Shown here piece by piece: positions 7,128 through 62,500 of a DNA stretch of 64,000 nucleotides. The stretch is from Heptranchias perlo (lineage: Eukaryota), in assembly GCF_035084215.1 (NCBI RefSeq), contig NC_090356.1:15810001-15874000 (forward strand), in the 5' to 3' direction. The notes under the pieces were generated by a model. It had not been told where the DNA came from. It ran no database searches and saw only the letters and a list, made by a program, of their open reading frames with translations. Each line of letters starts with the position of its first letter. The first letter of the stretch is position 1. The position numbers were made by a program, and so were the translations under genes.

Positions 7128-7232
7128 TTTACAGTGCTCTGGTCTGGTCAGACCACACCAGTTTTTTTTAATTCTTTTATTCGTTCACGGGATGTGGGCG
7201 TCGCTGGCAAGGCCGGCATTTATTGCCCATCC

Positions 7233-10133
7233 CTAATTGCCCTCGAGAAGGTGGTGGTGAGCCGCCTTCTTGAACCGCTGCAGTCCGTGTGGTGACGGTT
7301 CTCCCACAGTGCTGTTAGGAAGGGAGTTCCAGGATTTTGACCCAGCGACAATGAAGGAACGGCGATATATTTCCAAGTCGGGATGGTGTGTGACTTGGAG
7401 GGGAATGTGCAGGTGGTGTTGTTCCCATGCGCCTGCTGCTCTTGTCCTTCTAGGTGGTAGAGGTCGCGGGTTTGGGAGAAGAAGCCTTGGCGAGTTGCTG
7501 CAGTGCATCCTGTGGATGGTGCACACTGCAGCCACAGTGCGCCGGAGGTGAAGGGAGTGAATGTTTAGGGTGGTGGAAGGGGTGCCAATCAAGCGGGCTG
7601 CTTTATCTTGGATGGTGTCAAGCTTCTTGAGTGTTGTTGGAGCTGCACTCATCCAGGCAAGTGGAGAGTATTCCATCACACTCCTGACTTGTGCCTTGTA
7701 GATGGTGGAAAGGCTTTGGGGAGTCAGGAGGTGAGTCACTCGCCGCAGAATACCCAGCCTCTGACCTGCTCTCGTAGCCACAGTATTTATATGGCTGGTC
7801 CAGTTAAGTTTCTGGTCAATGGTGACCCCCAGGATGTTGATGGTGGGGGATTCGGCGATGGTAATGCCGTTGAATGTCAAGGGGAGGTGGTTAGACTCTC
7901 TCTTGTTGGAGATGGTCATTGCCTGGCACTGATCTGGCGCGAATGTTACTTGCCACTTATGAGCCCAAGCCTGGATGTTGTCCAGGTCTTGCTGCATGCA
8001 GGCTCGGACTGCTTCATTATCTGAGGGGTTGCGAATGGAACTGAACACTGTGCAGTCATCAGCGAACATCCCCATTTCTGACCTTATGATGGAGGGAAGG
8101 TCATTGATGAAGCAGCTGAAGATGGTTGGGCCAAGGACACTGCCCTGAGGAACTCCTGCAGCAATGCCCTGGGGCTGAGATGATTGGCCTCCAACAACCA
8201 CTACCATCTTCCTTTGTGCTAGGTATGAGTCCAGCCACTGGAGAGTTTTCCCCCTGATTCCCATTGACTTCAATTTTACTAGGGCTCCTTGGTGCCACAC
8301 TCGGTCAAATGCTACCTTGATGTCAAGGGCAGTCACTCTCACCTCACCTCTGGAATTCAGCTCTTTTGTCCATGTTTGGACCAAGGCTGTAATGAGGCGT
8401 GGAGCCGAGTGGTCCTGGCGGAACCCAAACTGAGCATCGGTGAGCAGGTTATTGGTGAGTAAGTGCCGCTTGATAGCACTGTCGACGACACCTTCCATCA
8501 CTTTGCTGATGATTGAGAGTAGACTGATGGGGCGGTAATTGGCCGGATTGGATTTGTCCTGCTTTTTGTGGACAGGACATACCTGGGCAATTTTCCACAT
8601 TGTCGGGTGGATGCCAGTGTTGTAGCTGTACTGGAACAGCTTGGCTAGAGGCGCAGCTAGTTCTGGAGCACAAGACTTCAGCACTACAGCTGGGATGTTG
8701 TCGGGGCCCATAGCCTTTGCTGTATCCAGTGCACTCAGCCGTTTCTTGATATCACGTGGAGTGAATCGAATTGGCCGAAGACTGGCTTCTGTGATGGTGG
8801 GGATATCGGGAGGAGGCTGAGATGGATCATCCACTCGGCACTTCTGGCTGAAGATGGTTGCAAACGCTTCAGCCTTGTCTTTTGCACTCATGTGCTGGAC
8901 TCCGCCATCATTGAGAATGGGGATGTTTGCAGAGCCTCCTCCTCCCGTTAGTTGTTTAATTGTCCACCACCATTCACGACTGGATGTGGCAGGACTGCAG
9001 AGCTTTGATCTGATCCGTTGGTTGTGGAATCGCTTAGCTCTGTCTATAGCATGTTGCTTCCGCTGTTTAGCATGCATGTAGTCCTGAGTTGTAGCTTCAC
9101 CGGGTTGGCACCTCATTTTTAGGTACGCCTGGTGCTGCTCCTGGCATGCTCTTCTACACTCCTCATTGAACCAGGGTTGATCCCCTGGCTTGTTGGTAAT
9201 GGTAGAGTGAGGAATATGCCGGGCCATGAGGTTACAGATTGTGCTGGAATACAATTCTGCTGCTGCTGGCCCACAGCGCCTCATGGATGCCCAGTTTTGA
9301 GCTGCTAGATCTGTTCTGAATCTATCCCATTTAGCACGGTGGTAGTGCCACACAACACGTTGGATGGTGTCCTCAGTGCGAAGACGGGATTTCATCTCCA
9401 CGAGGACTGTGCGGTGGTCACTCCTACCAATACTGTCATGGACAGATGCAATTGCGACAGGTAGATTGGTGAGGACGAGGTCAAGTAAGTTTTTCCCTCG
9501 TGTTGGTTCGCTCACCACCTGCCGCAGGCCCAGTCTAGCAGCTATGTCCTTCAGGACTCGGCCAGCTCTGGTGCTACCGAGCCACTCTTGGTGATGGACA
9601 TTGAAGTCCCCCACCCAGAGTACATTTTGTGCCCTTGCTACCCTCAGTGCTTCCTCCAAGTGGTGCTCAACATGGAGGAGGACTGATTCATCAGCTGAGG
9701 GAGGACGGTAGGTGGTAATCAGCAGGAGGTTGCCTTGCCCATGTTTGACCTGATGCCATGAGATTTCATGGGGTCCAGAGTCAATGTTGAGGACTCCTAG
9801 GGCCACTCCCTCCTGACTGTATATCACTGTACCGTCACCTCTGGTGGGTCTGTCCTGCCGGTGGGACAGGACATACCCAGGGATGGTGATGGAAGAGTCT
9901 GGGACGTTGGCTGACAGATATGATTCTGTGAGTATGGCTATGTCAGGCTGTTGCTTGACTAGTCTGTGGGACAGCTCTCCCAATTTTGGCACAAGTCCCC
10001 AGATGTTAGTAAGGAGGACCTTGCAGGGTCGACTGGGCTTGGTGTTTTGCCGTTGTCGTGTCCGGTGCCTAGTGGTCCGATGCCGGGTGGTCTGTCCGGT
10101 TTTATTCTTATTATGACTTTTCGTAGCGAGATT
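7233..10133 (-). CDS. APE endonuclease + reverse transcriptase; frame open from the TAA at 10136-10134, no ATG before the APE domain
   Basis: APE motifs VLLTNIWGL, LTESYL, YRPP, GDFNVHH, LDLVLT, SDH; RT motifs NYRPISLL, QFGFR, DIKVAFDRV, GVPQGSVLGP, FADD. The ORF-track start at 9992 is a GTG; 47 further sense codons lie upstream. Confidence 0.92.
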   Translation of the reverse strand, partial: NLATKSHNKNKTGQTTRHRTTRHRTRQRQNTKPSRPCKVLLTNIWGLVPKLGELSHRLVKQQPDIAILTESYLSANVPDSSITIPGYVLSHRQDRPTRGDGTVIYSQEGVALGVLNIDSGPHEISWHQVKHGQGNLLLITTYRPPSADESVLLHVEHHLEEALRVARAQNVLWVGDFNVHHQEWLGSTRAGRVLKDIAARLGLRQVVSEPTRGKNLLDLVLTNLPVAIASVHDSIGRSDHRTVLVEMKSRLRTEDTIQRVVWHYHRAKWDRFRTDLAAQNWASMRRCGPAAAELYSSTICNLMARHIPHSTITNKPGDQPWFNEECRRACQEQHQAYLKMRCQPGEATTQDYMHAKQRKQHAIDRAKRFHNQRIRSKLCSPATSSREWWWTIKQLTGGGGSANIPILNDGGVQHMSAKDKAEAFATIFSQKCRVDDPSQPPPDIPTITEASLRPIRFTPRDIKKRLSALDTAKAMGPDNIPAVVLKSCAPELAAPLAKLFQYSYNTGIHPTMWKIAQVCPVHKKQDKSNPANYRPISLLSIISKVMEGVVDSAIKRHLLTNNLLTDAQFGFRQDHSAPRLITALVQTWTKELNSRGEVRVTALDIKVAFDRVWHQGALVKLKSMGIRGKTLQWLDSYLAQRKMVVVVGGQSSQPQGIAAGVPQGSVLGPTIFSCFINDLPSIIRSEMGMFADDCTVFSSIRNPSDNEAVRACMQQDLDNIQAWAHKWQVTFAPDQCQAMTISNKRESNHLPLTFNGITIAESPTINILGVTIDQKLNWTSHINTVATRAGQRLGILRRVTHLLTPQSLSTIYKAQVRSVMEYSPLAWMSAAPTTLKKLDTIQDKAARLIGTPSTTLNIHSLHLRRTVAAVCTIHRMHCSNSPRLLLPNPRPLPPRRTRAAGAWEQHHLHIPLQVTHHPDLEIYRRSFIVAGSKSWNSLPNSTVGEPSPHGLQRFKKAAHHHLLEGN

Positions 10134-10344
10134 TTACAACTGATTGGCTTGCTCGGCCATTTCAGAGGGCAATTAAGAATCAACCACATTGCTGTGGGTC
10201 TGGAGTCACATATCGGCCAGACCGGGTTTTTACGACAATCCGGTAGTTTCATGGCCATCATTACTGATACTAGTATTTTAATTCCAGATTTTTATTTATT
10301 TAATTAATTGAATTTTTTAATTAATTAATTGAATTTAAATTCGC

Positions 10345-10440
10345 CAGCTGCCGTGGCGGGATTTGAACTCATGACTTTGGATTTTTAGTCCAGGCCTCTG
10401 GATTACTAGCCCAGTAACATAACCTCTATGCTACCGTACC
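10345..10440 (-). promoter_or_regulatory. tRNA-Thr(AGT)-like internal Pol III promoter: A box 10433-10423, B box 10370-10359
   Basis: Sense reads GGTACGG TAGCATAGAGG (A box) ... CTGGG CTAGTAA TCCAG (anticodon arm, AGT) ... GAGTTCAAATCC (B box). Confidence 0.85.
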
Positions 10441-16540: not shown

Positions 16541-17343
16541 CTGAGATTTCAAAAAAGCACCAAGACCTAGCTTGGCTGGTGGTGAGAAGGGCCCTTCCCG
16601 TCAGATCCTTCATGCACTCCAGGACTCTCAGCGCCACCGCACACTGTCCCACAGGAGGCTGCGATGGAGACGAGACCGTCACCCATCTCCTTCTGGAATG
16701 CGCCTTTGCAAAGAAGGTCTGGAGAGAGATGCAGTGGTATCTGTCCAGGTTCGTCCCGAGCAGTTCCCTAACACAGGACTCTACGGGCTGTTCCCGGGGA
16801 CGCACACCGAGACAAACATCAACTGCTGCTGGAAGACCATTAACTCAGTGAAAGACGCCCTTTGGTCTGCCCGAAACCTGCTGGTCTTCCAGTGCAAGGA
16901 GCTGTCCTCGACCGAGTGTTGCAGACTGGCACATTCCAAGGTCCAGGACTACGTGCTCAGGGACGCACTGAGGTTGGGTGCAGCAGCCGCAAAGGCTCTG
17001 TGGGGAAAGGCAACCATTTAGAGCCTTCCCGCCATTGTATACCGAGGGGCTGCAATCAGGGAAAACCCCCCCTGGGCAGAATGTAAAATTCAAATTGCTG
17101 TAATGTACCTGTAATGAATCTGTAATGTACCTGTAATGAATCTGTAATCAATAATCTGTACTGAGTATGATGCAATGAGACACCCCAGAGTGTCATGAAC
17201 TGAAATTATGTACAATGTGTTCATTGAACTGTACTTGATTTAACCTGCAAATTGTATAATCTGACGTTTGAAATGTGATATGACAACTGTATTGTATGTA
17301 TTGCTACAAATTTTATGAATAAAGTATATTTTTTGAAAAAAAA
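16541..17343 (+). mobile_element. Tx1/L1-clade LINE 3' fragment
   Basis: zf-RVT motif 'CPTGGCDGDETVTHLLLECAFAKKVW', one frameshift, 3' UTR with tandem 'tgtaatgtacctgtaatgaatc', AATAAA and poly(A). Confidence 0.8.
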
Positions 17344-18009: not shown

Positions 18010-19186
18010 TTAAACTAAATGGTACAATTTTAAAGGGATGCAGTAATAGAGAGACCTGGGGATTTACGTATATAAATCTTTGAAGGTGGCAGGACAAGTT
18101 GAGAAGGCTGTTAAAAAAGCATATGGGATCCTTGGCTTTATAAACAGAGGCATAGAGTACAAAAGCAAGGAGAAGCTGGGATTGTTCTCCTTGGAACAGA
18201 GAAGGTTGAGAGGAGATTATTTAGAGGTATTCAAAATCATGAAGGGTCTAGACAGAGTAGATAGAGAGAAACTGTTCCCGTTGGCGGAAGGGTCAAGAAC
18301 CAGAGGGCATAGATTTAAGGTGATAGGCAAAAGAACCAAAGGTGACACGTGGAAAAACTTTTTTTTTTAACACAGCAAGTGGCTAGGATCTGGAATGCAC
18401 TGCCTGAGGGGGAGGCAGATTCAATCATGGCCTTCAAAAGGGAACTGGATAAATACTTGAAATGAAAAAATGTGCAGGGCTATGGGGATAGAGTGGGGGA
18501 GTGGGACTAGCTGGATTGCTCTTGTTTAGAGCCGGCACGGACTCGATGAGCCGAATGGCCTCCTTCTGTGCTGTAACCTTTCTATGATTCTATGTTATAC
18601 TAAAACTTTATAAATCACTGGTTAGGCCCCAGCTGGAGTATTGTGTCCAATTCTGGGCATTACAATTTAGGAAGGATGTCAATGCCCTAGAGAGGGTGCA
18701 GAGGAGATTTACCAGAATGGTACCAGGAATGCGGGACTTCAGTTATGAGGAGAGGCTAGCAAAGCTGGGGTTGTTCTTCTTACAGCAGAGAACGTCAAAG
18801 GGAGATTTAATAGAGGTGTTCAAAATCATGAAGGGTTTTGATAGAGTAAATAAGGAGAAACTGTTTCCACTGGCAGAAGGGTCGGTAACCAGAGGACACA
18901 GATTTAAGGTAATTGGCAAAAGAATCGGAGGCGAGATGAGGAGAATTCTTTTTACGCAGCGAGTTGTTATGATCTGGAATGCACCGCCTGAAGAGGTGGT
19001 AGAAGCAGATTCAATAGTAACTTTCAAAAAAGGGAATTAGATAAAAACGTGAAGGAGGAAAATTTACACAGCTATGGGGAAAGAGCAGGGGAATGGGACT
19101 AATTGCTCTTTCAAAGAGCCGACACAGGCATGATGGCCGAATGGCCTCCTTCTGTGCTGTATCATTCTATGCTTCTATGATTCTAT
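18010..19186 (+). mobile_element. CR1 3' fragment with a second CR1 3' fragment (about 18171-18592) nested inside it
   Basis: Host frame 'GIEYKSKE' resumes as 'VILKLYKSLVRPQLEYC' after the inner (ttctatga)n tail. Confidence 0.85.
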
Positions 19187-22666: not shown

Positions 22667-23689
22667 CTGTTTGTAAAATATAGCAGTGGTACATGTCATA
22701 TGGAAAGTGTATACCATTTACATGAGGAGTTAAACATTTCCAAATCAATTGAGCATGACTGAAATACTAGATAAATAAGTACCAGCAACTCTGCAACCAA
22801 CATAAAATATACTGACCCCAGGCAGTTAGTTCCTCAGTAATGGTGAGAATAAAATTTCCTTAAATTGCACCATGCATGTACAGAAGACAATCCAAACTAT
22901 ATATAGCCACATGGTACCAGATATGAGTGAATCAGCTGCTTCCATCCAGTGTGTATCATATAACTCTTTTGAAACAGAAACCTGATTTTCTGGCATTTAT
23001 TTTTATGTGTTCAATAATAATCTTATAGTTTACGACTTTTGTGACAAAAAAGGAATTCTAAAAACACCATCAGAAAAGGTATTTGAATATAAAATTCCTT
23101 CTCTGGATATTATAAGGACTGATTCCCTGACTGGGTGCTCCTAGCGCAAAGTGGTGCGCATATAGAGAGCAGGTGGTTTTCCTTCCAATCAAATGCATCG
23201 GTTGTCAGCCCACAAATTCCTGACCTATGCTCCCTGCGATCGCCAGCCCTCACTGAGAGTGCCCAATCGCACAATCAGTTCTATATCATAAAACCAACGT
23301 TCCTTATTCAAAGGAGGCTTTAATTTATTTATATAAATCCTTTAAATACATTAAGCAACCACCTGCTAACATAGCTACCATATCTATGTTAACAGTGTAA
23401 TTAATTGGAACCTACCTTTAGAGATTAAAGTTATAAATTTTTCAAATGTTTTATGACTTATTTCAGATGAGAAGCATACTTCATATATATGCCTTTTCCA
23501 GCTGAATAGTCTTTCAAGTGGTGGCTTAATAGAGATTCTGCTGCACATATTTTAATTACCTTCTCCTCTTACTACCTGTTTATGACATGTAATAATATCA
23601 CATATGCTGGCACCTAAAAGATTGGAGAACAGGCTACAGACCCTTCCATATTGAAAAAAGAAAGATGTACATTTATAAAGAAAGAAAGA

Positions 23690-24144
23690 AGAAAGATTTG
23701 CATTTATACAGCACCTTTCACAACCTTAGGATGCCACAAAACGCTTTACAGCCAATTAAGTACTTTTGAAGAGTTGTAATGTTGGAAACGCAGCAGCCAA
23801 TTTGCATACAGCAAGGTCCCACAAACAACAGTGTGTTAATGACCAGATAATCTGTTTCAGTGATGTTGGTTGAGGGATAAATATTGGCCAGGACATTGGG
23901 AAGCACTCCCCTGCCCTTCTTCGAAATAGAGCCTTGGGATTTTTTTACTTCCACCTGGGAGGGTAGACAGGGCCTCGGTTTAATGTCTCATCCAAAGGAC
24001 AGCACCTCCGACAGTGCAGCACTCTCTTAGTACTGCACTGGAGTGTCAAGCTAGATTTTGTGCTCAAGTCTCTGAAATGGGACTTGAACTCACGACCTTC
24101 AGACTCAAAGGTGAGAGTGTGATCAACTGAGCCGTAGCTGACAC
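23690..24144 (-). mobile_element. Full-length Deu-SINE
   Basis: tRNA head 'gtgtcagctacggctcagttg...gagttcaagtcc', Deu body, L2-like tail with (tctt)n. Confidence 0.85.
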
Positions 24145-24190: not shown

Positions 24191-24706
24191 ATGGAATACT
24201 CTCCACTTGCCTGGGTGAGTGCAGCTCCAACAACACTCAAGAAGCTTGACACCATCCAGGACAAAGCAGCCCGCTTGATTGGCACCGCATCCACCACCCT
24301 AAACTTTCACTCCCTTCACCACTGGCGCACAGTGGCTGCAGTGTGTACCATCCACAGGATGCACTGCAGCAACTCGCCAAGGCTTCTTTGACAGCACCTC
24401 CCCAACCCACGACCTCTACCATCTAGAAGGATAAGGGCAGCAGGCACATGGGAACAACACCACCTGCATGTTCCCCTCCAAGTCACACACCATCCCGACT
24501 TGGAAATATATCGCCGTTCCTTCATCGTCGCTGGGTCAAAATCCTGGAACTCCCTTCCTAACAACACTGTGGGAGAACCTTCACCACACGGACTGCAGCG
24601 GTTCAAGAAGGCGGCTCACCACCACCTTCTCATGGGTAATTAGGGATGGGTAATAAATGCTGGCCTCGCCAGCGACACCCACATCCCATGAACAAATAAA
24701 AAAAAA
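24191..24706 (+). mobile_element. 5'-truncated copy of the 7162-10440 LINE family
   Basis: 'MEYSPLAWVSAAPTTLKKLDTIQDKAARLIG...' nearly identical to the long copy; ends in poly(A). Confidence 0.92.
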
Positions 24707-37069: not shown

Positions 37070-37640
37070 ATTCTGATTACCTGCCGAGACAGTTGAGCAC
37101 TACAATTAACCTCAGCACCTCTGGGAGGTAAAAATCAAGCAGGTTTCCTACGCTTGGACACTTCCCAGTGATCCCGGTTTGAAAGAGCACATGTGTAGAT
37201 TTGAGAACAAGATTGGCCTCATCTGCAATGCCTGCTGTGATCAAATAGGCTACCAGCGCACATTATTTAGGCTCACGCATGAAGAAAGAACTTGCACATC
37301 TCTCGCACCTTTCACAACCTCAGGACGTCCCGAAGTGCTTCATAATCAATGAGGCACTTTTGAAGTGTAGTTGCTGTTGTAATGTAGGAAAAGTGGCAGC
37401 CAATTTGTACACAGCAAGGCCCCACAGACAGCAATGTTATAATGACCAGATAATCTGTTTTAGCGACGTTGGTTGAGGGATAAATATTGGCCAGGACTCC
37501 CCTTCTCTTCTTCAGATAGTGCCATGGGATCTTTTAAATCCACCTGAGAGTGATTATTTGGATGTGTACCAGGGGGCAGTCAGTGCCTCTTCAACCATAT
37601 TCCAGAAAAAATCAGCGCCTTTTAATTAAAGAGGGGAAAA
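37070..37640. mobile_element. LF-SINE-like element (+) interrupted by a Deu-SINE fragment (37286-37550, -)
   Basis: Outer element breaks at 'gctcacgcatgaagaa' and resumes after 'cacctgagag'. Confidence 0.6.
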
Positions 37641-41400: not shown

Positions 41401-42044
41401 GACACACAAAACAAAGATCTTATATGAATTCCATAGGCCAGACCTCATCTCTTATGCCTTGAGGAGGAAGAAAAACTCATATTTAGGAAAAATGTTAATT
41501 AAAAATATACTAAGCTAATTAAAGCAGGTGGTTTTTTTTCAGACCATGGGCATAATTTTAAAAGAAATCTGCGTTGGGGGCAGGGGGGCAAAGATAATCT
41601 TTTTTTTGGAACGGGCAGGAATCCTGGCTCCAACTTGCCGAAGAATGCACACGACCCAGAGTCATCTGGGTGCGCACACCGTTCCCGAACCCAGAAGTCC
41701 AGTTGGCAATTAAAGCCAGTGGGACAGTATTTAAAGCACTAAATCACCTAGTTGAAGAATAAATGTAATTTACAATGAAGGCAAGTGATTTCAACGCTGC
41801 CTCAGCGTGTTTCCCGTGTTGTGTGAAACACGCCATGGTGAAGGAGTCGTGTTTCAGCCGGCAGCCATTTGGACATTTAAATGCCTGTTTGACAGATGGG
41901 GATAAAAGGTGAGTTATTGCAGCAAGGCACTCAGTTCTCTCAGACAAACTTTTGGCTGGGAGATCTTTGTGTTTAGACTGAAAATTCTTGGTTTCCACTC
42001 AGAATTGTTCTGTTTACACATATTTACCAACTTTTTGGACCCCT

Positions 42045-42772
42045 TCAAACACTCCATCCAAGGACGAGCAACATCACCAGCCTCGCCAGGCACGGCATGC
42101 ATTTCCGCTACTTGCAGCTCCACAACACAGTGCTGTGCCACAGGCACCTGCACAAGAGCACAGAGGGCAACAACAGAGAGAGCGACATCGCAGGTGGCAC
42201 TACCCTCGCCAGAGGGTCTACAGACCAAGGCTTAGCTTTCTGGAACTCTCTGAGGGGCAGTGCACGGCTGCTCAGAGTGAGTCACCAGGTGGTCACAGAC
42301 ATCTGCAGCCTCCTTCATGCCAGACTGCTCCCGGCTGGGCCTGGTGGCATCTCATTACTCGTTGCAATTAAAGAGACCACTGCCCTAAACTTCTTCGCCT
42401 CCAGATCATTCCAGGGTGCCACCGGGGACATCGCCGGGGTCTCTCAGTCAACTGCACACAAGTGCATAAGGCAGGTCACTGACGGCTTGTTTCACAGGGC
42501 CTCGCAATACGTCAACTTCCCCATGGACAACCTCAGCCAGACGGAGAGGGCAGTGGGATTCCACTCTGTGGCGGCTTCTCACGTGTACAGGGTGCAATTG
42601 ATTGCATGCATGTAGCAATCCGAGCACCTCCACATGACAAGACTGTTCATCAACAGAAAGGGGTATCACTCCATCAACACTCAGCTCGTTTGTGACCACC
42701 ACAAAAGATTTCTTCACGTGTGCGCCAGATTCCCTGGCAGCTGCCACGATTCGTTCATTCTGAGGGAATCCA
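42045..42772 (+). pseudogene. Harbinger (HARBI1-like) DDE transposase, frameshifted and 3'-truncated
   Basis: 'TALNFFASRSFQGATGDIAGVSQSTAHKCIRQVTDGL', 'VQGAIDCMHVAI', 'VCARFPGSCHDSFILRES'. Confidence 0.9.
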
Positions 42773-42931
42773 GGCACTGTGGTCATTGAAGGGCTTGTAA
42801 GAGAACAGAAGGCAATATTAAGCATCATCAAAGGTGTATCATGTTGCGATGAGCATACTGAGGTGTTCAACACGCCAAGCATTGTTACCATCAATTCATG
42901 TTGTGTGTGATGAATGTTAAAGTTGTGTCAC

Positions 42932-43664
42932 CAGACATTTGTGGGGTGCCAGTCTTGGAGTCCCTGACAGACAGGCACTCGAGGGTGCGGCTGATCTCCA
43001 GCGCCTCCTGCTCTCCGTGTGTGAGGACCACTATTTGTTGTGGCCCCACTCCAGTCCTCGCTCTCTTACGCGCATTTTGGGCTCTCTTCTGGAGGGGGAG
43101 AAAGTGCAGATGTGTGAGTGAGTGAAGGTGAAGTGGCCAACCGATGAATGCATTGCTTTGGGTGAGGCTGACCGTGAAAGGGGTGCATCAGAGGGTGAGT
43201 ATGAGACAGAGACATCACATTGGATGAGGATTGGGGTGAGTGGTAGTGGCGGGGTGACTACTGGGGAGGTGAGGAAGTGCTGAGGGTGTGCAGGTAAGTT
43301 GAGGATGAGCCTTAAGTGGGTGTGAGAAGTGATGTGATGGAGTAGTCTTGGCAGTGCAGAATGATATGGGGGGTGGGGGATGATGTGCACCATGGAATGC
43401 AGGAGAATGAGTGAGTGTACTCACTTTTGCTGACCTACTTAGGTCATTGAAATGCTTCCTGCACTGGACCGAGGTGTGGGAGATGTTGGTACTGCTGGTG
43501 ACCTCCTCTGCCATCTCGAGCCAGGCCTTCTTGGTGGCAGAGGCAGGGCGCTTCCTCCTGTTGGCCGCGTAAAATAGTTCCCTCCCCCTCCTCACCCCGG
43601 CCAGTAGCAGCTGAAGTGAGGCATCACTGAATCGTAGAGCTGCCTTGCCCCTGTGCTGCTCCAT
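42932..43664 (-). pseudogene. Harbinger Myb/SANT-like DNA-binding gene; exons 43664-43425 and 43088-42932
   Basis: MEQHRGKAALRFSDASLQLLL...KKAWLEMAEEV...QCRKHFNDL, GT-AG intron, then KRAQNARKRARTGVGP; remainder deleted. Confidence 0.85.
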
Positions 43665-44904
43665 TGAATCTTCTTGCTCTTTGCTCCAGCAAAATCCATT
43701 GGGGCAATGTCCCTTTAAATCCAGGCGCTGCAGCTGACAGCCTGTCATGCAGGTGCACCGTCCACCCACTGCGAGGCTTTCGGGCGGCAAGCCCGGAAAC
43801 AAGATTAATGGCCACCAATTAAGTCGCGATCACGTGGGGAACGGTAAGTTTATATTGGTTGGTTTGCCGCGCGCTCATTGCCCTCCCCCCACTGGCTGCC
43901 ATTCCGCCGTCCTTTTAAAATCGAGCCCCGTGTCATTATCATGTTCTTAAATCTGGATACATTTGTAAATAGAGTAACAGTAAATGTTCACTTTGGAGGT
44001 CATGTTTGAATAGGAATTTTCCTATGATGGAAAGATTTAATTGGCGTACAGTGAACTGTGTTAGTTACTGAAGTGTGCAGAAGGTACATTACACGATTGC
44101 AGTAGAGTGAAGATGCTGGCTCAAGAGTTTTCTGGTGTTAATAGTTGGCAACCAGTCAGAATGACATGAAGATGAATGCTTTGGTGCATTCCTAATTGGA
44201 AGAGAGAGAATCCCTGTTGTAAAAGGGAGTCAAGTGAAGTTTGGCAGTTCAGACGAGTTCTAATGAAGGCGAAGTGGGCTTTGAGGGCAAGCAAGGAGAA
44301 ATGACTGACATTTTGTTACCACCATTAGTGGAATGGGCTGATATTTAAAGGGAAAGTAAACCTTTTATCCTTCTGCCATGTGTATATTTCAAAGCTATCA
44401 CAAGTTAGATCTATATGACACTATTTTCAACATTTCCATTCATCTCAAATACTTCTCCAGGGTTTCTTAAAAATTTCAGCCTTAATGCCACAATAATTCA
44501 CCTCCATATAGAGATGGTGGGGTTTTTACTGTTACTTCCATTCCCTTGAATTAAAAGTCTGCCCATTGGTTTAAGCTCTTATTAGATGCCAAAAAATAGA
44601 AAAATCCTGGAAATGCAAAAACCAATCAATCTATTCTGTGGGGTAATCTTCTAATAACTAGTCTTGCTTGAGGTTATTTAATTTTGTACTGATATTGTGT
44701 AGTTCTGTAAACACAGCCTAAGTTAAATAGTGTGCTTCTATCTACATTACTCTTAATTTCAGCCTTTGTAGGACCTGGTTCATATCCCTTCTCAATCTTC
44801 ACTTGTATCTCTCTTTGTACTTGCAGCAATGGTGATGTTCTCCAGATAACAAGTTCAGATACTGTTCCCCTGAGCATATGCAGAATCGACATAGCAAGTT
44901 TCAT

Positions 44905-45870
44905 TCACAACAACAACCTGCATTTATATAGCACCTTCAATGTAGAAAAATGTCCCAAGGTGCTTCACAGAAACATAATTAAAAATCTGCACTGAGCCAA
45001 AGAAGGAGATGTTAAGAGGAGTGACCAACAGTTTAGTCAAAGAGGTGATTTTTAAGGAGAGTCTTAAAGAAGGAGAGGGAGGTGCAGAAGCTGAGAGATT
45101 TAGGAAAGGAATTCCATCGCACAGGACCAACACAGCTGAAGGCACGCCCACCATTGGTGAAGTGAAGGAAGTGGAGGATTCACAAGGGGCCAGAGCTGTA
45201 GGAATGCAGAGTTCCTGGGGGGTTATAGGCCTGGAGGAAGTTACAGAGATAGGGAGGGGTGAAGCCACAAAGCGATTTAATGTTTTCTTTGGCACAGAGG
45301 AGGCTGAGGGGAGATTTAATTAAGGTGTACAAAATTATGAGGGGCCTAGATAGAGCAGATAGGAAGGACCTATTTCCCTTAGCAGAGAAGTCAATAACCA
45401 GGGGGCTTAGATTTGAAGTGATTGGTAGAAGGATTAGAGGGGAGCTGAGGAAAAGATTTTTCACCCAGAGCGTGGTGAGGGTCTGGAACTCACTGTCCGA
45501 AAGGGTGGTCGAGGCAGAAACCCTCAACTCATTTAAAGAGTACCTGAATTGCCGTAGCCTACAGGGCAACGGACCAAGTGCTGGAAAGTGGGATCAGAAC
45601 GGGGTGGCTCGTTTTTGGCCAGCGCGGACACGATAGGCTGAATGGCCTCCTTCTGTGCTGTAAATTTTCTCTGATTCTATGATTTAAACATGAGAATGAA
45701 AATTTTAAATTTAAGGTGTTGCTGGACCGGGTGCTAGTGTGGGTCAGTGAGAATAGGAGTGATGCGTGAGCAGGACTTGGTGCAGGATAGGATACGGGCA
45801 GCAGAGTTTTGGATAAACTGAAGTTTACAGAGCAAGGAGGATGGAATACCAGCCAGGAATGGTTGGGTGA
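44905..45870 (-). mobile_element. L2 3' fragment interrupted by a CR1 3' fragment (45279-45682, +)
   Basis: L2 sequence breaks at 'gcgatttaa' and resumes at 'gatttaaacatgagaatg'; inner ORF 'LAQRRLRGDLIKVYKIMRGLDR'. Confidence 0.8.
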
Positions 45871-51379: not shown

Positions 51380-54170
51380 ATTAAACTGCATTTATTTCAA
51401 TGCAAGAAGTCTGATGGACAAGGGCACGGATGGGTACATGGGACTGGGATGTTATAGCTATTACTGAAACATGGCTAAGGGAGGGGCAGGACTGGCAGCT
51501 CAATGTTCCAGGGTATGGATGCTATAGGAAAGATAGAGCAGGAGGTAAGAGAGGAGGGGGAGTTGCGTTCTTGATTAGGGAGAACATCACGGCAGTAGTG
51601 AGAGGGGATATATCCGAGGGTTCGCCCACTGAGTCTATATGGGTAGAACTGAAAAATAAGAAGGGAGAGATCACTTTGATAGGATTGTACTACAGACCCC
51701 CAAATAGTCAACGGGAAATTGAGGAGCAAATATGTAAAGAGATTACAGACAGCTGCAAGAAAAATAGGGTGGTAATAGTAGGGGACTTTAACTTTCCCAA
51801 CATTGACTGGGACAGCCATAGCATTAGGGGCTTGGATGGAGAGAAATTTGTTGAGTGTATTCAGGAGGAATTTCTCATTCAGTATGTGGATGGCCCGACT
51901 AGAGAGGGGGCAAAACTTGACCTCCTCTTGGGAAATAAGGAAGGGCAGGTGACAGAAGTGTTAGTGAGGGACCACTTTGGGACCAGTGATCATAATTCCA
52001 TTAGTTTTAAGATAGCTATGGAGAATGATAGGTCTGGCCCAAAAGTTAAAATTCTAAATTGGGGAAAGGCCAATTTTGACGGTATTAGACAGGAACTTTC
52101 AGTAGTTGATTGGGAGAGTCTGTTGGCAGGCAAAGGGACGTCCAGTAAGTGGGAGGCTTTCAAAAGTGTGTTAACCAGGGTTCAGGGTAAGCACATTCCT
52201 TATAAAGTGAAGGGCAAGGCTGGTAGAAGTAGGGAACCTTGGATGACTCGGGAGATTGAGGCCCTAGTCAGAAAGAAGAAGGAGGCATATGACATGCATA
52301 GACAGCTGGGATCAAGTGGATCCCTTGAAGAGTATAGAGATTGCCGGAGTAGAGTTAAGAGAGAAATCAGGAGGGCAAAAAGGGGACATGAGATTGCTTT
52401 TGCAGATAAGGCAAAGGAGAATCCAAAGAGCTTCTACAAATACATAAAGGGCAAAAGAGTAACTAGGGAGAGAGTAGGGCCTCTTAAGGATCAACAAGGT
52501 CATCTATGTGCGGAACCACAAGAGATGGGTGAGATCCTGAATGAATATTTCACATCGGTATTTACGGTTGGGAAAGGCATGGATGTTAGGGAACTTGGGG
52601 AAATAAATAGTGATGTCTTGAGGAGTGTACATATTACAGAGAGGGAGGTGCTGGAAGTCTTAACGCGCATCAAGGTAGATAAATCTCCGGGACCTGATGA
52701 AATGTATCCCAGGACGTTATGGGAGGTTAGGGAGGAAATTGCGGGTCCCCTAGCAGAGATATTTAAATCATCGACAGCTACAGGTGAGGTGCCTGAAGAT
52801 TGGAGGGTAGCAAATGTTGTGCCTTTGTTTAAGAAGGGCGGCAGGGAAAAGCCTGGGAACTACAGACCGGTGAGCCTGACATCTGTAGTGGGTAAGTTGT
52901 TCGAGGGTATTCTGAGAGACAGGATCTACAGGCATTTGGAGAGGCAGGGACTGATTAGCAACAGTCAGCATGGTTTTGTGAGAGGAAAATCATGTCTCAC
53001 GAATTTGATTGAGTTTTTTGAAGGGGTAACCAAGAAGATAGATGAGGGCTGTGCAGTAGACGTGGTCTACATGGACTTTAGCAAAGCCTTTGACAAGGTA
53101 CCGCATGGTAGGTTGTTACATAAGGTTAAATCTCACGGGATCCAAGGTGAGGTAGCCAATTGGATACAAAATTGGATTGACGACAGAAGACAGAGGGTGG
53201 TTGTAGAGGGTTGTTTTTCAAACTGGAGGCCTGTGACCAGCGGTGTGCCTCAGGGATCGGTGCTGGGTCCGCTGTATTTACTATTTATATTAATGATTTG
53301 GATGAGAATTTAGGAGGCATGGTTAGTAAGTTTGCAGATGACACCAAGATTGGTGGCATTGTGGACAGTGAAGAAGGTTATCTAGGATTGCAACGGGATC
53401 TTGATAAATTGGGCCAGTGGGCCGATGAATGGCAGATGGAGTTTAATTTAGATAAATGTGAGGTGATGCATTTTGGTAGATCGAATCGGGCCAGGACCTA
53501 CTCTGTTAATGGTAGGGCGTTGGGGAGAGTTATAGAACAAAGAGATCTGGGAGTACAGGTTCATAGCTCCTTGAAAGTGGAGTCACAGGTGGATAGGATG
53601 GTGAAGAAGGCATTCGGCATGCTTGGTTTCATTGGTCAGAACATTGAATACAGGAGTTGGGATGTCTTGTTGAAGTTGTACAAGACATTAGTTAGGCCAC
53701 ACTTGGAATACTGTGTACAGTTCTGGTCACCCTATTATCGAAAGGATATTATTAAACTAGAAAGAGTGCAGAAAAGATTTACAAGGATGCTACCGGGACT
53801 TGATGGTTTGACTTATAGGGAGAGGTTGGATAGACTAAGACTTTTTTCCCTGGAGAGTAGGAGGTTTAGGGGTGATCTTATAGAAGTCTATAAAATAATG
53901 AGGGGCATAGATAAGGTAGATAGTCAAAATCTTTTCCCAAAGGTAGGGGAGTCTATAACGAGGGGGCATAGATTTAAGGTGAGAGGGGAGAGATACAAAA
54001 GGGTCCAGAGGGGCAATTTTTTCACTCAAAGGGTGGTGAGTGTCTGGAACGAGCTGCCAGAGGCAGTAGTAGAGGCGGGTACAATTTTGTCTTTTAAAAA
54101 GCATTTGGACAGTTACATGGGTAAGATGGGTATAGAGGGATATGGGCCAAGTGCAGGCAATTGGGACTAG
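51380..54170 (+). pseudogene. CR1 ORF2 (APE + RT), frameshifted near 51420 and near 53277
   Basis: YFNARS, ITETWL, YYRPP, GDFN, SDHN, NYRPVSL, DFSKAFDKV, GVPQGSVLGP, KFADDTK; split across track ORFs 51430-53313 and 53211-54170. Confidence 0.93.
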
Positions 54171-54290
54171 CTTAGTGGTATAAACTGGGCGACATGGACA
54201 TGTTGGGCCGAAGGGACTGTTTCCATGTTGTAAACTTCTATGATTCTATGATTCTATTAAGAAGCCCTACCCCCTACCTTGACTATCCTC

Positions 54291-54715
54291 TTTTTTATGT
54301 TCATTCTTGGAAAGGCCAGTATTTATTGCCCATCTCTAGTTGTCCTTGAGAAGGTGATGGTGGGCCGCCTTCTTGAACCACTGCATTGGAGCTTGCTAGC
54401 CCACTTCAGAGGGCAGTTAAGATTCAACCATGTTGGTATGGAACCAGAGTCACATGAAGGCAAGACCGGGTAAGGAGCTTTCCCTCCCTAATAGAAAAAA
54501 CATAGAAAACATAGAAAATGGACATTAGTGAGTCAGTTGGGTTTTTACGACAACCCGACAGCTTCATGGTCACTTTTACTGGTACCAGCTTTATGTTTCC
54601 AAATTTTTCTATAAATTGAACAGAAATTCTCAAACTCCCATGGTGGGATTTGAACTCATTCTCTGGATTATTAGTCCAGGCCTCTGGATTACAAATCCAT
54701 TAATATAACTACTTA
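54291..54715 (-). mobile_element. tRNA-Thr-like SINE made of the 5' leader and 3' tail of the 7162-10440 LINE family
   Basis: 54715-54391 aligns to about 10435-10149; 54385-54291 aligns to about 7282-7175; no ORF between. Confidence 0.88.
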
Positions 54716-55672: not shown

Positions 55673-56685
55673 GGGGGGGGGGGGAGTTTTAACCCCCAAG
55701 AACAGGTGGGTTGGGGCGGGTAGGCAGTTAAAATAATCGATTTTTGGAACACGACCATACCTCAGCTCCAATACGCCCACTTCTGGGTTTAACGGAGGAG
55801 CGTTTGGATGCGTCCCAATAACCTACTGACCATAATTATTTCAGGCGGGCGGGTAGTTAACGGAGCAATTAACGTGATTATGAGGCATTAAGCAGGTGTT
55901 TTTAAATGAATTTAAGACACCTTCGGATTTAACACCTCCAGCATGGGGTTTCTGGGTCGCCGGAATCACGGCAGGTAAAAGGAGGCGAGTAGGGTTGGAT
56001 CCTTGAGGTAAGTACCTTTATTGCACTGCTTGAGGGCCAGGAGGAACAGGGGTGCTCCCCAGTGGCTCACCAAACTTACCTGCTGTGATCGGACCCCCGC
56101 GATCGGCCAATCCCCACACCAGCGTTCAGCCGATTTCCCCCCCTCCCCCACTACCAATATACGACCCCCTCCCTACCTCCAATGTCCAACTCTTCTCCCA
56201 ATCTGCGATGTCCAACTCCCCCCCCCACCCCCCAAGTTTTTTATCATTCGTTCATGGGATGTGGGCATCGCTGGCAAGGCCAGCATTTATTGCCCGTCCC
56301 TAATTGCCCTTGAGAAGGTGGTGATGAGCCACCTTCTTGAACCGCTGCAGTCGGTTCTCCTGGCATCAGACCCCCCCCCCCTCCCCATCTCCACCTACCA
56401 GCCCGCGATCTTCTCCCCGGCTCCCCCCCCAACTCCCGATATCCTCCACGCCCCCCCCCCCCCACCGCCCCCAACCCCATGTCCTCCACAGCCCACGATC
56501 TCTCCCTCCTTCCCTCACTCCCTTCCACCTTTCCACTTTCTGGCTGCGGGAAACCGATTTGAAAAATTTAAAACAGGTCCTACCATTAAATTCGGTAGGA
56601 TCTGCAAGAAACCCGGACTTCCGGGTTTCCTGTCCGCAAACCCTCCCCCTGCTCGCTTCCCAGCTCCAAGTTAAAACCCAGGCCC
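55673..56685 (+). mobile_element. Non-autonomous Harbinger element with 3-bp TSD (ATG)
   Basis: Left ~130 bp homologous to the end of the 59590-61420 element; ATG at 55670-55672 and 56686-56688; removal restores CR1 'gagacatggttg' (ETWL) on minus. Confidence 0.8.
56237..56352 (-). mobile_element. Short 3' copy of the tRNA-headed LINE family nested in the Harbinger element
   Basis: Near-identical to 7176-7286. Confidence 0.88.
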
Positions 56686-58264: not shown

Positions 58265-58800
58265 TGTTCTGGTCACTACATTACAGGAAAGATGTGATTG
58301 CTCTAGAGGGGGTGCAGAGGAGATTTATGAGGATGTTTCCAGGGCTGGAGAATTTTAGCTCTGAGGAAAGATTGGATAGGCTGGGGTTGTTTTCTTTCGA
58401 ACAGAGGAGACTGAGGGGGAAGTATAATTGAAGTGTATAAAATTATAAGGAACCTAGACAGAGTGGATAGAAAGGACCTATTTCCCTTAGCAGAGAGGTC
58501 AATAACCAGGGGCCATAGATTTAAAGTAATTGGTAGAAGGATTAGAGGGGAGTTGAGGAGAAATTTTTTCACCCAGAGGGTGGTGGGGGTCTGGAACTCA
58601 CTGCCTGAATGGGCGGTAGAGGCAGAAACCCTCAACTCATTTAAAAAGTACTTGGATGTGCACTTGAAGTGTCGTAACCTACAAGGCTACGGACCAAGAG
58701 CTGGAAAGTGGGATTAGACTGGATAGCTCTTTTTCGGTCGGCACAGACACGATGGGTCGAATGGCCTCCTTCTGTGCTGTAAATTTCTATTGATTCTATA
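58265..58800 (+). mobile_element. CR1 3' fragment
   Basis: 'YKIIRNLDRVDRKDLFPLAERSITRGHRFKVIG...FFTQRVVGVWNSLP' and tail. Confidence 0.88.
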
Positions 58801-59589
58801 AGCTAAATTCACAACACCAGGAAGACAATTTGTTTTTGGAACGAACACCCGTTTTTGTTTGTTCAATCAATTTATACAATATTATCATTTATATATACTA
58901 ATGTTGCTACCAATCTCAAAGCAGCAAGTTAGCGGAATATTGCAGATTAAGACTGTATTGACTAATTTAATAGAAAAGCAATGGCTTGGAAATTCCTGTT
59001 GTCTCACTCCGCTGGAGTAACTGCTGCCTTGTCCAAAGCCAGAGATCCTGTCCCAAATTCCGAGGACGTAGGCATTTGCATAGCAATGGCAGCTGGCACC
59101 TGCAAGGGAGCACCAGCGGTGGCTGTTCCAGCCCAAGCTGATTCGTTCTGAAGCAGACTGGAGTTCTCTGGAGGCCCAAGTAGGCTAAACTTCTAAACTC
59201 TTCAACTCCCACTGGAGCCGTTCCATCCAGAGAAAGTAATTAATCTCCTCTGGGATCGATTACTTTATTCTAGAAGGCCTCAAAGTGACTCATGTCAGAT
59301 CTCAACTGGCGTGTGGGTTTCACTGAGACCTTTCAAGGACATAAGGGAAGAAGTTTCTAGGAAAGGTCGGGAACTCCCCCCAATAGGCTCCCATGATGTA
59401 GAGGGAGCCAGCTGAAGACCCACCCATGTCCGCTGACTGGAATTTAAAGATCGGGTCCAAATGGGATGGAAGCCCGGCAAAGCTGGGATCTAGCCTATAT
59501 TCTCAGCCCCCTTCTGCACGTGAATGCGATTAATACCCTCTCCAGCCCAAGGAATTTTGGGGCCAATATTCCTGAGTATGCAAAAAATA

Positions 59590-61420
59590 AAAACTCATCA
59601 TGAGATGGCTGCCGGGAGCCATGGCCCACCTCTCTTTTTCCACTGATACTAAGAGAGCCTGTGAGGGATGAGGGCATCCCTGGCATCCAGGGCAGCAATG
59701 TGCTCGGCTGGTTTGGCAATGGGTGCACCATCATCATATTCCTCCTCCTCATCCTCCTCCTCATCCTCTTCCTCTTGTTCAATGTTATCACCAACAGAGG
59801 ATGATTAACGAGCGCCTTCGTCCTCCTCTATCTGTAAACCTCACTGCTGCGCTATGTTGTGCAGAACGCAGCGCACCCCGATTATTCTGGAGATCCTCGC
59901 TGGTGAGTACTGAAGGGCACCTTCAGGCCTATCCAGGCACCTGAAGCGTATCTTCAACATGCCTGTGGCTTGTTCAGTGACACACCTGGTGATCATGTGG
60001 CTCTGGTTGTATCGCTCTCATGCCTCGTTGGTGGGGTTCCTCATAGGTGTCATGAGCCAAGTTTGCAGCGGATATCCCTTGTCTCCAACAAACCAGCCCT
60101 TAAGTCTGTCTCTTGTTTGGAGGAGGTCTGGAATGTTGGACTGGTGCAGAATGAACGCATCGTGCCAGCTGCCAGGAAATCTGGCGCACACCTGCATAAA
60201 TCGCTTCTTGTGGTTGCACACCAACTGTGCCTTGGCGGAGTGATAGCCCTTTTGGTTTTTGAAGATTCCTGGCCCATGTGTTGGTCCTCGTATTGCCACA
60301 TGTGTGCAGTCGATTGCATCCTGCACCCGTGGGAAGCCAGGCAGAGAAGCAAAACCCACTGCCCACTCATCATGGCTGTTGTCGTTGTGGGGAAAGTTCA
60401 TGTAATGGGACGCTCCGGCAAACAACCCATCCGTCACCTGCCTTATACCCTTATGATTGACTTCCCCTTGGAAATCTCACCAGTGACACCCTGGAAGGAT
60501 CCGGAGGCAAAGAAATCGAGGGCAGTGATTACTTTTACTGCGACGGGCAATGCGTGGCCACCAGGTCAAGTCGGGAGCAGCTCTTCCTCAAGGAGGCTGT
60601 AGATATCTGCGACCACCTGCCGACTCAATCTGAGCCGGCGTAGACACTGCTCCTCAGAGAGGTCCAGGAAGCTCAGCCTCTGCCTGTCTACCCTCTCATG
60701 TGGGTAGTGCCTCCTGTGACTTTAGCCCCTCTGTTGCTCCTCTCTCTGCTGTTCTCCAGGTTCTTGTTGTGCACCTCTCTTTCTTGTGCACGGCAGATCC
60801 CAATACAGCACGGCATGGCTGCTGCAGATGGTCATTTTCCTCCTCCTCCTCAGATGTCCTCTGGAATACATCCATTGCGTTCCCCATCCTGACCATGTCA
60901 GTTTGAGAGGCTCCAAAGTTTTGCTAAAGATGTCTCAACACAAGAACTGTCAGTCTCAGCAAAGAACACACAGTCTCAATGCAAGAACGCTCAGCCAAAC
61001 ATTTGCCTGAGAGAACTGAGAGACCAGCTGCAAAACCTCACCTTTAATTGAGATGGGTCAATCACAGGTTCAAAGGCCCAAATCTGGCTGAATTGGCTGA
61101 ATCTCACCTCTGTTTCACTGGCGAGATTCAGAAGCCCCAGAAAACCCATGCAGGAGACGTTAAATTTGTTTCTGTTTAAGAATCAATTAAAAAATACCTG
61201 CCTCAACTACCTCAGCGATCTTAATTGACGCACTAAGTACCTGCCCGCTGGCAATAATTGGGGACGCGACTTCCGGGTTTCGGCTGCACGCACGCATTCA
61301 AATCTGCCCACGTTAAACCCGGAAGTGGGCACGTCGGTGCCGGGTTACGGTCTCGCTACAAAATCAAGGATTTTCACTACCCACCTGCCCCCAAACTGTT
61401 TTGGAGGGTTAAAATTCCCC
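59590..61420 (-). mobile_element. Harbinger transposon, one-ended (TIR at 61420)
   Basis: End 'ggggaattttaaccc', subterminal 'cttccgggttt' motifs, whole transposase region; Myb half absent. Confidence 0.85.
59649..60887 (-). pseudogene. HARBI1-like transposase, full span but disrupted
   Basis: MGNAMDVF...; 'GFPRVQDAIDCTHVAI', 'VCARFPGSWHDAFIL', 'GWFVGDKGYPLQTWLMTP'; acidic tail ending ARDALIPHRLS*. Confidence 0.9.
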
Positions 61421-62079: not shown

Positions 62080-62500
62080 GTGTCAGCTGTGGTTCAGTGG
62101 CAGTGCTCTTGTCTCTGAGTCAGAAGGTTGTAGGTTTAAGACCCACTCCAGAGACCTGAGCACATAATGCTGGGCTGACACTCCAGCGCAGTACTGAGGG
62201 AGCACTGCACTGTCAGAGGTGCCATCTTTTGATTGAGATGTTAAACTGAGGCCCCATCTGCCCTCTCAGTTGGACGAAAAAGTTCCCACGACATTATTTC
62301 AAAGATGAGCAGGGGAGTTCTCCCCAGTGTTCTGGCCAATATTTATCCCTCAACCAACATTGCTAAAACAGATTACCTGGTCATTTATTTCATTGTTGTT
62401 TGTGGAACCTTGCTGTGTGCAAATTGGCCGCCATGTTTCCAACAACAGTGACAACACTTCAGAAAGTACTTAATTAGTTGTAAAGCGCTTTGGAACATCA
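62080..62500 (+). mobile_element. Near full-length Deu-SINE
   Basis: tRNA head 'gtgtcagctgtggttcagtgg...ggtttaagacc', Deu body, truncated tail. Confidence 0.85.

What the first reader, a model, noticed from the sequence alone, without database searches (positions are those of the whole stretch)
54291..54715. SINE that is an internal-deletion partner of the tRNA-headed LINE
Seen: the same head and leader up to 'ctctgaagtgggctagcaagc' join after about 5 nt to the LINE's last ~100 nt ('tgcagtggttcaagaaggcggc...gggcaataaat'). Most SINE/LINE pairs share only the 3' tail; here both ends are shared. The SINE retains a ~50-nt leader segment ('...cactaatgtcc...agggagggaaagctccttacc') that the LINE copy lacks near 10224, so the LINE copy is not its direct parent. 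Inference: either the SINE arose by deleting the ORF from a Pol III LINE, or a LINE captured its own SINE's head as promoter.
Basis: partly seen in the sequence, partly recalled or inferred. Interest (0 to 1): 0.78.

Follow-up and report, generated by a model that had tools for sequence, protein, structure and literature searches.

The report
Shark LINE that repeatedly spawns SINEs
This short repeat is a dead copy of one of many SINE-like elements that a shark protein-coding retrotransposon sheds by deleting its own middle, which is possible because that retrotransposon already begins with a tRNA-type promoter and may itself be transcribed by RNA polymerase III, an enzyme that normally makes only non-coding RNA.

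Summary
Confirmed. Window 54290-54715 (-) is head + leader of the LINE at 7161-10440 joined to its last ~95 nt. The LINE is elasmobranch Zenon: its 5' end matches by eye seven published consensus sequences from four sharks and a ray, all starting with the same tRNA-like A/B-box head that the paper does not mention. Direction is LINE to SINE, repeatedly: the window copy carries old-subfamily bases (21 of 25 sites, 0 young) shared with old ORF-bearing LINEs, and the young LINE has spawned its own deletion families (81 and 23 copies) with clonal markers. Old copies show ~29 junction classes in 45; the window's exact junction is unique, and the 50-nt segment is merely lost from the window's LINE copy. 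Pol III transcription of the LINE is inferred, not shown: sharp 5' end, no T4 run in 3.3 kb, and T3 runs at 0.41 of expectation, below all 64 foreign LINE controls. The RT frame has no AUG before the endonuclease. Closest known: Persaeus, deleted from butterfly Zenon, which lacks a Pol III promoter. The deletion route is solid; a Pol III protein-coding LINE is about 60% likely.

The parts
54290..54715 (-). Old-subfamily internally deleted Zenon derivative (SINE-like); decayed copy, 10.4% from the old-type majority
54642..54715 (-). tRNA-derived head remnant with B box at 54646-54657; A box not recognisable; doubled anticodon-like arm
54391..54641 (-). Leader shared with the LINE (LINE positions ~85-340), including the ~50-nt segment
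54493..54519 (-). Private 27-nt (TTTTCTATG)n insertion, resembles the CR1 tail repeat; adds T4, T4 and T6 runs
54386..54390 (-). Leader-to-tail junction (LINE position ~340 to ~3226), single-copy in this exact form
54290..54385 (-). LINE 3' tail with 14-nt deletion in the terminal stem-loop and short A tail
7161..10440 (-). Full-length young-subfamily elasmobranch Zenon LINE; no T4 run on the sense strand in 3311 nt examined
10359..10440 (-). LINE tRNA-derived head: A box 10423-10433, B box 10360-10368; best match tRNA-Gln among 4 tRNA types tested
10224..10227 (-). ACCC microhomology at which this LINE copy lost ~50 nt of leader
7233..10133 (-). Single APE-endonuclease + RT reading frame, 966 aa stop to stop; endonuclease motif starts at 10019; first in-frame ATG only at 9395
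9959..10189 (-). Upstream AUG frame (~76 codons) overlapping the endonuclease start in the +1 frame; role unresolved
10165..10175 (-). Leader arm, exact 11-nt complement of the tail arm at 7234-7244 (possible 5'-3' panhandle)
7234..7244 (-). Tail arm of the possible panhandle
24191..24704 (+). 5'-truncated Zenon 3' fragment, 92% to the full-length copy
56239..56355 (-). 5'-truncated Zenon tail fragment, 93%

Best explanation
The element is a dead member of a swarm of short non-autonomous retroposons made by internal deletion of elasmobranch Zenon, a 3.3-kb single-ORF LINE whose own 5' end is a tRNA-derived A/B-box head. Steps: (1, shown) the LINE family begins with the head, in two age classes here and in five other elasmobranchs. 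(2, shown) microhomology-guided deletions join the end of the ~350-nt leader to the last 70-130 nt, many times independently. (3, shown for two young junctions) such products are copied again as units. (4, inferred from shared tail) they use the LINE's RT-endonuclease in trans. (5, inferred, ~0.6) LINE and derivatives are transcribed by Pol III from the internal promoter, which is why the LINE avoids T-runs and why one deletion yields a ready-made SINE with no need to acquire a head. (6, inferred, open) the uncapped RNA is translated from a non-AUG start directed by the conserved leader, which the short elements keep, perhaps to reach ribosomes making the RT. Steps 1-3 I put at ~0.9; the stated confidence is for the whole including Pol III.
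For: Head on LINE: 35 of the first 40 young heads on contig C1 run into the ORF; 28 of 40 start at reference base 1 and 39 of 40 within 13 nt; A box intact in 30 of 35, B box in 33 of 35; 2128 exact head motifs versus 9523 tail motifs. Same head and leader open all 7 elasmobranch Zenon consensus rows of Stuart et al. 2026, not the 2 hagfish or 1 coelacanth rows (first 400 nt, by eye). Direction: at 25 old/young diagnostic sites the window copy is 21 old, 0 young; old LINEs 511 old/59 young states, old short copies 440/27, young LINEs 46/800, J1 12/498, J2 14/499; tree split old|young with short and long elements mixed on each side, UFBoot 100. Clonality: J1 81 copies, J2 23; J1 is fixed where the LINE is polymorphic (23 of 24 A vs 14 of 50 at one site; 22 of 22 vs 29 of 53; 24 of 24 vs 30 of 52); 11 of 23 J2 share a base absent from 52 LINEs; one old junction has 57 hits at 1 mismatch. 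Many origins: ~29 junction classes in 45 old copies, leader ends median 357, tail starts median 3233; small deletions in full-length copies have microhomology 2.1 nt vs 0.68 random. Leader-to-tail joints in contigs of 4 of 4 runs from 4 organisms. Pol III signature: 0 T4 vs 23 A4 runs; 15 of 19 full-length copies T4-free, none with T4 in the ORF; T3 runs 7 vs 17.2 (P 0.002) and 13.6 under synonymous permutation (P 0.006); host CR1 ORFs 95 T4 in 19.5 kb; T3 observed/expected 0.41, lower than all 64 foreign LINE ORFs (median 1.11, minimum 0.66), and 0 of 41 controls of 600 aa or more lack T4.
Against: No transcript data on polymerase, 5' end or cap. The T4 absence alone is weak: P 0.02-0.03 on base-frequency nulls and 0.07-0.08 on synonymous permutation; the ORF is T-poor (19%) and only 3 of 64 controls are comparably T-poor, with 3 T4 seen vs 4.8 expected; no ORF of another Zenon was available as a closest control. 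Decayed old ORF pieces hold 6 T4 in ~4.4 kb and many old short copies have T4-T6 in the AT spacer, which I read as decay since A-tails erode the same way, but did not prove. The head is degenerate: ARAGORN finds nothing, Rfam tRNA 19.9 bits, below the 29 cut-off. An uncapped 3.3-kb RNA must be translated, and no mechanism was demonstrated; the leader is not unusually stable (z -0.03 and -1.0) and has no Rfam IRES match. Copies are deletion-prone (43 deletions of 8 nt or more in 35 young copies), so part of the old junction diversity, including the window's own junction, may be secondary. 25 of 70 old heads were not called bipartite (4 ORF-bearing, the rest interrupted or unresolved).
Confidence: 0.6

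Rival explanations
1. Same LINE-to-SINE deletions, but the full-length LINE is made by Pol II (internal or host read-through promoter); the tRNA-like head is a captured 5' UTR that acts as a Pol II promoter or RNA-processing signal, and only the short derivatives, if any, use Pol III.
For: LINEs are generally Pol II transcripts (established knowledge; Kojima 2018). Butterfly Zenon yields very successful deletion derivatives with no Pol III promoter (Wang 2019). T4 absence is only marginal on the most conservative null. An AUG sits upstream in the +1 frame in the young family.
Against: A and B boxes are kept across sharks and a ray; copies start at the tRNA's first base; T3 depletion exceeds all 64 controls and survives synonymous permutation; the RT frame lacks an AUG, so capped scanning would not explain translation either.
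Confidence: 0.25
2. The short elements are one-off deletions made at or after each insertion and never propagate; they are junk LINE copies, not SINEs.
For: The window's junction is unique; ~29 classes in 45 old copies; copies are deletion-prone with a 5' bias.
Against: J1 (81) and J2 (23) share exact junctions plus linked bases, one of them absent from LINEs; some J1/J2 copies are 5'-truncated like retrotransposed units; both breakpoints cluster in windows under 100 nt of a 3.3-kb element.
Confidence: 0.08
3. SINE first: an independent tRNA SINE using Zenon's tail existed, a Zenon captured its head and body, and the window element descends from that SINE lineage rather than from the LINE.
For: Old-type heads are mostly short elements (45 of 70 vs 4 of 70 ORF-bearing). 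A capture event must have happened once, since related LINEs lack the head and begin with Met.
Against: Short elements track LINE subfamily changes along the whole leader; several retain the spacer at the ORF start or ORF pieces (L007, L019, L022, L029, L274); no fixed SINE junction exists.
Confidence: 0.07

Closest known systems
Elasmobranch Zenon LINEs (Stuart et al. 2026, PMC13343379)
   Same: Single APE-RT ORF, no ORF1, poly-A tail, 3.2-3.3 kb; first 400 nt of 7 consensus rows show the same head and leader.
   Different: Nothing structural: this is that family. The paper's text and supplement have 0 hits for 'tRNA' and the text 0 for 'polymerase III'; head, T-run avoidance, missing AUG and short derivatives were not seen described.
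Persaeus SIDE and its partner Zenon in Lepidoptera (Wang et al. 2019, PMC6740152)
   Same: 260-390 nt elements with both ends of a ~3.3-kb single-ORF Zenon, several independent origins, microhomology at breakpoints, co-amplification.
   Different: Persaeus has no tRNA homology and no Pol III promoter; about one origin per genus, against dozens of junctions in one genome here.
Bipartite SINEs from RTE/Vingi (Bov-tA etc.; Kojima 2018, PMC5786205)
   Same: tRNA head + LINE 5' part + LINE 3' tail.
   Different: There the head is added afterwards to a Pol II bipartite LINE by template switch; here the head is already part of the autonomous LINE, so one deletion suffices. Parent clade is Zenon, not RTE/Vingi.
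Chondrichthyan SINEs CmiSINE (CORE) and SacSINE1 (Deu) (Luchetti et al. 2017, PMC5499810); HE1/HER1 (recalled)
   Same: tRNA-headed SINEs of cartilaginous fishes sharing a tail with a LINE.
   Different: They share only the tail, with L2 or CR1 partners; sequences were not compared here.

Membership tests
Zenon (CR1 group) | Single APE + RT ORF, no ORF1 | tested here: met
   Pfam RVT_1 and Exo_endo_phos on one 966-aa frame; only ~350 nt upstream
Zenon (CR1 group) | Poly-A tail rather than microsatellite tail | tested here: met
   A8-A15 tails in LINE, J1 and J2 copies; feature defined
Zenon (CR1 group) | Sequence identity with named elasmobranch Zenon consensus | tested here: met
   12-nt leader motif hits 6 supplement rows, all Zenon; head and leader match by eye over the 400 visible nt of 7 rows; not aligned by program
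Zenon (CR1 group) | RT phylogeny inside the Zenon clade | not tested
   No named Zenon RT available; nearest proteins are unnamed, 33-38% identical
SINE2 (tRNA-derived SINE) | tRNA-derived head with A and B boxes | tested here: met
   Family: A 30 of 35, B 33 of 35, tRNA-Gln-like, Rfam below cut-off. The window copy keeps only the B box
SINE2 (tRNA-derived SINE) | Short, non-coding, LINE-derived 3' tail | tested here: met
SINE2 (tRNA-derived SINE) | Amplifies as a unit | tested here: met
   J1, J2 and one old junction; not met for the window's exact junction
SINE2 (tRNA-derived SINE) | Transcribed by Pol III | not testable with these tools
   Only contigs of runs not on record as RNA
SIDE (Persaeus type) | Both ends from the partner LINE by internal deletion, repeated origins | tested here: met
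SIDE (Persaeus type) | No small-RNA head, no Pol III promoter | tested here: not met
   Head present; contrast
Kojima-type bipartite SINE | Head added secondarily to a headless bipartite RTE/Vingi derivative | tested here: not met
   Autonomous LINE carries the head in 35 of 40 young and 20 of 39 old 5' ends
Pol III type-2 transcription unit (full-length LINE) | No internal T4+ terminator on the sense strand | tested here: met
   T4 statistic alone marginal, T3 depletion significant
Pol III type-2 transcription unit (full-length LINE) | TFIIIC/Pol III occupancy, uncapped 5' end, inhibitor profile | not testable with these tools
   Needs experiment

The most novel reading that the evidence does not exclude
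Elasmobranch Zenon is an autonomous, protein-coding retrotransposon transcribed by RNA polymerase III from a captured tRNA promoter, with an ORF purged of T-runs and translated without an AUG in its own frame, kept since before sharks and rays split; it is a standing source of new SINE families, each born in one deletion step.
Probability: 0.55. Interest if true: 0.9.

Novelty: new variant of a known kind. Interest (0 to 1): 0.72.

Why it matters
The textbook division is LINE = Pol II and coding, SINE = Pol III and non-coding with a head of separate origin. Here the coding element wears the SINE head and short families arise from it again and again, with old and young rounds preserved in one genome: a directly observable route for SINE birth and a natural deletion series that maps what a retroposon RNA must keep (leader to ~340, tail from ~3265). 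If the LINE is really a Pol III transcript it is a natural 3.3-kb Pol III mRNA for a ~950-aa protein, which makes cap-independent, non-AUG translation of a LINE RT testable in a simple reporter.

Tried and rejected
ARAGORN finds no tRNA in the window or in 23 foreign LINE loci; it misses this head too, so the blank on foreign loci is uninformative. Target-site duplications: 5 of 49 short matches, chance-like. Frameshift from the upstream AUG frame into the RT frame: suggested by two decayed copies but not supported by 39 old copies: both frames stay open, old/young changes are 6 synonymous/14 non-synonymous in the RT frame vs 2/16 in the upstream frame, and the old start is ACG; left open. 5'-3' panhandle: 11-nt exact complement, P 0.003 against shuffled tails, duplex energy P 0.03 and only rank 9 of 143 windows; formed in 3 of the 4 young folds by pair probability and drawn in the fourth's structure, but in only 1 of 5 old copies and not in the window copy; kept as a weak lead. 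Leader stability not above shuffles; the two-sequence consensus fold is fitted to its inputs. Rfam: no IRES or ribozyme match. Expression: no RNA holder listed; four runs laid are contigs with guessed RNA status, so no inference on expression or 5' ends. A DNA search meant to find old LINEs returned mostly young ones. The genome-wide tRNA search returned only Cys and Thr among 12 loci checked, so donor assignment rests on 4 tRNA types. ESM Atlas gave only generic EN-RT clusters. L064 was mis-oriented by the script and dropped from the 20 full-length copies; L164 duplicates L163 and was dropped from J1; 16 of 80 foreign loci lacked a usable ORF of 300 aa. Literature: 10 searches showed no listing describing a tRNA-headed or Pol III LINE; Repbase, Dfam and most subscription papers were not searchable, so prior annotation is not excluded.

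Full report
Observation. The LINE is one 966-aa endonuclease + RT frame with no ORF1. Positions below are those of a complete LINE copy (L067, 3336 nt). The 50-nt leader segment is standard in the LINE (11 of 13 aligned copies) and was lost from the window copy between ACCC repeats. The window's short element is dead: no A box, a 27-nt T-rich insertion, a 14-nt tail deletion.

The LINE family owns the head. A young head motif has 2128 exact genome matches, the young tail 9523. Of the first 40 young heads on contig C1, 35 continue into the ORF and 5 jump to the tail; 28 begin at base 1 and 39 within 13 nt. A and B boxes are intact in 30 and 33 of 35. The head looks like a tRNA with a doubled anticodon arm; it scores best against tRNA-Gln of four types tested (57.5 vs 45.5-49) and only 19.9 bits in Rfam. 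In Supplementary Table 2 of Stuart et al. 2026 (PMC13343379; I saw passages, section 15 and the first 400 nt of each row) all seven elasmobranch Zenon rows, from white shark, whale shark, catshark, dogfish and a stingray, open with this head and leader, while the hagfish and coelacanth rows do not (by eye). The family is therefore elasmobranch Zenon and the head predates the shark-ray split (inference). That paper has no 'tRNA' hit in text or supplement. Unnamed protein relatives at 33-38% start with Met shortly before the endonuclease, and the nearest full foreign locus has no A/B pair (L320), so the head is a gain.

Direction. The window element has an older head type (412 exact motif matches; copies average 11.4% from their majority against 1.3-1.8% for the young groups; only 5 of 29 and 0 of 18 independently found old copies match the motif exactly, so the true number is probably thousands). 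At 25 diagnostic sites it is 21 old, 0 young. Thirty-nine ORF-bearing LINE 5' ends of the old type were fetched; 20 reach the head. Old LINEs and old short elements share old states, young LINEs and young short elements share young states, and a 45-row tree splits by age, not by length (support 100). Short elements were thus made from the LINE in at least two rounds.

Many births, real propagation. Among 70 old heads in genome order, 45 were called head-to-tail, 4 carry ORF, 21 are interrupted or unresolved; the 45 fall in about 29 junction classes, with leader ends at 349-362 (quartiles) and tail starts at 3225-3253. The commonest old junction has 57 hits at one mismatch; the window's own has none besides itself and one doubtful hit and is probably a further-deleted form (inference). 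Two young junctions have 81 and 23 copies. J1 is fixed at four sites where LINEs vary, and 11 of 23 J2 copies share a base found in 0 of 52 LINEs: these were copied after the deletion. Deletion is a habit of the family: 43 events of 8 nt or more in 35 young copies, 31 in the first kb, 11 of them in two shared groups, with microhomology 2.1 vs 0.68 nt. Leader-to-tail joints appear in contigs from all four organisms laid. This parallels Persaeus, deleted from butterfly Zenon, which has no Pol III promoter (Wang 2019, PMC6740152, parts 1-3 of 5 and supplement part 1 read), and differs from Kojima's model, where a head is added later to a Pol II bipartite LINE (PMC5786205, parts 1, 3, 4 of 5).

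Is the LINE a Pol III transcript? Vertebrate Pol III stops at T4 or longer (established knowledge). The sense strand has 0 T4 and 23 A4 runs; 15 of 19 full-length copies have none and no copy has one in the ORF (these were best hits to the window copy). Alone this is modest: 3.3-3.7 expected, P 0.02-0.03, and P 0.07-0.08 when codon usage is held fixed. T3 runs give more power: 7 vs 17.2 and 13.6 (P 0.002, 0.006), while A, C and G runs are near expectation and host CR1 ORFs hold 95 T4 in 19.5 kb. Against 64 foreign LINE ORFs the T3 ratio of 0.41 is the lowest, as is the T content; few controls are equally T-poor. Against: decayed old ORF pieces have 6 T4 in 4.4 kb and old short copies often have T-runs in the AT spacer. 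No transcript evidence was obtained.

Translation. The first Met of the RT frame is residue 250, inside the endonuclease, and the old majority also has none upstream; published top ORF lengths of 739-747 aa for dogfish and stingray fit the same lack (inference). An AUG frame overlaps in +1, but substitutions favour the RT frame and its start is ACG in the old family. I favour a non-AUG start just past the leader, set by RNA structure, at low confidence; no unusual fold was found. A leader-tail panhandle enclosing the junctions is suggestive in the young family only.

Verdict. Real feature; new variant of a known kind. LINE-to-SINE by repeated deletion is well supported; the Pol III LINE is a good but unproven inference. 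Two earlier AI notes from other genomes reached the Pol III idea; they are not independent evidence. Other papers consulted as passages or parts only: PMC7245038, PMC5499810 parts 1-2 of 6, PMC11481361, bioRxiv 10.1101/443036. HE1/HER1 and the Deu-type label for other window repeats are recalled, not tested. Supplement cells were cut at 400 characters, so full published consensus sequences could bear on the T-run claim.

Noticed in passing
window 51415-54257 (+): CR1-type LINE (two overlapping ORF pieces, TTCTATGA-type tail) ending ~30 nt from the short element's tail; used as T-run control. Further CR1 3' fragments near 3055, 18173-19170, 45271-45688, 58267-58807.
   Followed up: partly
window 10673-11062 (-), also 1744, 23688-24069, 37282-37497, 62173-62440, 1-300: A second abundant SINE family with an L2-type tail; Deu/SacSINE1-like by recall only.
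   Followed up: no
window 41977-43829 and 59907-60602: ORFs resembling Harbinger/PIF transposase and Myb-like partner by recall; two related copies in opposite orientation.
   Followed up: no
window 16545-17021 (+): 158-aa ORF resembling the C-terminal zinc-finger region of an L1/Tx1-type LINE (recall).
   Followed up: no
L111-L150: Small microhomology-flanked deletions in young full-length copies are concentrated in the first kb (31 of 43), hinting at an insertion-time rather than post-insertion process.
   Followed up: partly
LINE reference position 333 and 273 (L061-L080, L111-L150): Four-state hypervariable sites in the leader of otherwise 98% identical copies.
   Followed up: no
tails and AT spacer of many copies (e.g. 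L071, L121, L137, L003): A-runs erode into TTTTAAAA-type palindromes.
   Followed up: no
L130, L137, L120: 5' GGG(TA) of the element appears to overlap target sequence; insertions mostly lack target-site duplications.
   Followed up: partly
G000 C38:2.5-8.9 Mb, C23, C1377 (L275, L276, L199-L228): Large tandem arrays of tRNA-Gln (period ~3.1 kb) and tRNA-Cys (period ~2.36 kb).
   Followed up: no
P0015, P0045, P0053, P0054, P0057: Shark gene models in public databases include fragments of this LINE's ORF (38-82% identity), probably annotation artefacts or exonisation.
   Followed up: no
L274, L278, L279: Old LINE copies with several serial internal deletions, intermediate between full LINE and short element.
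   Followed up: partly
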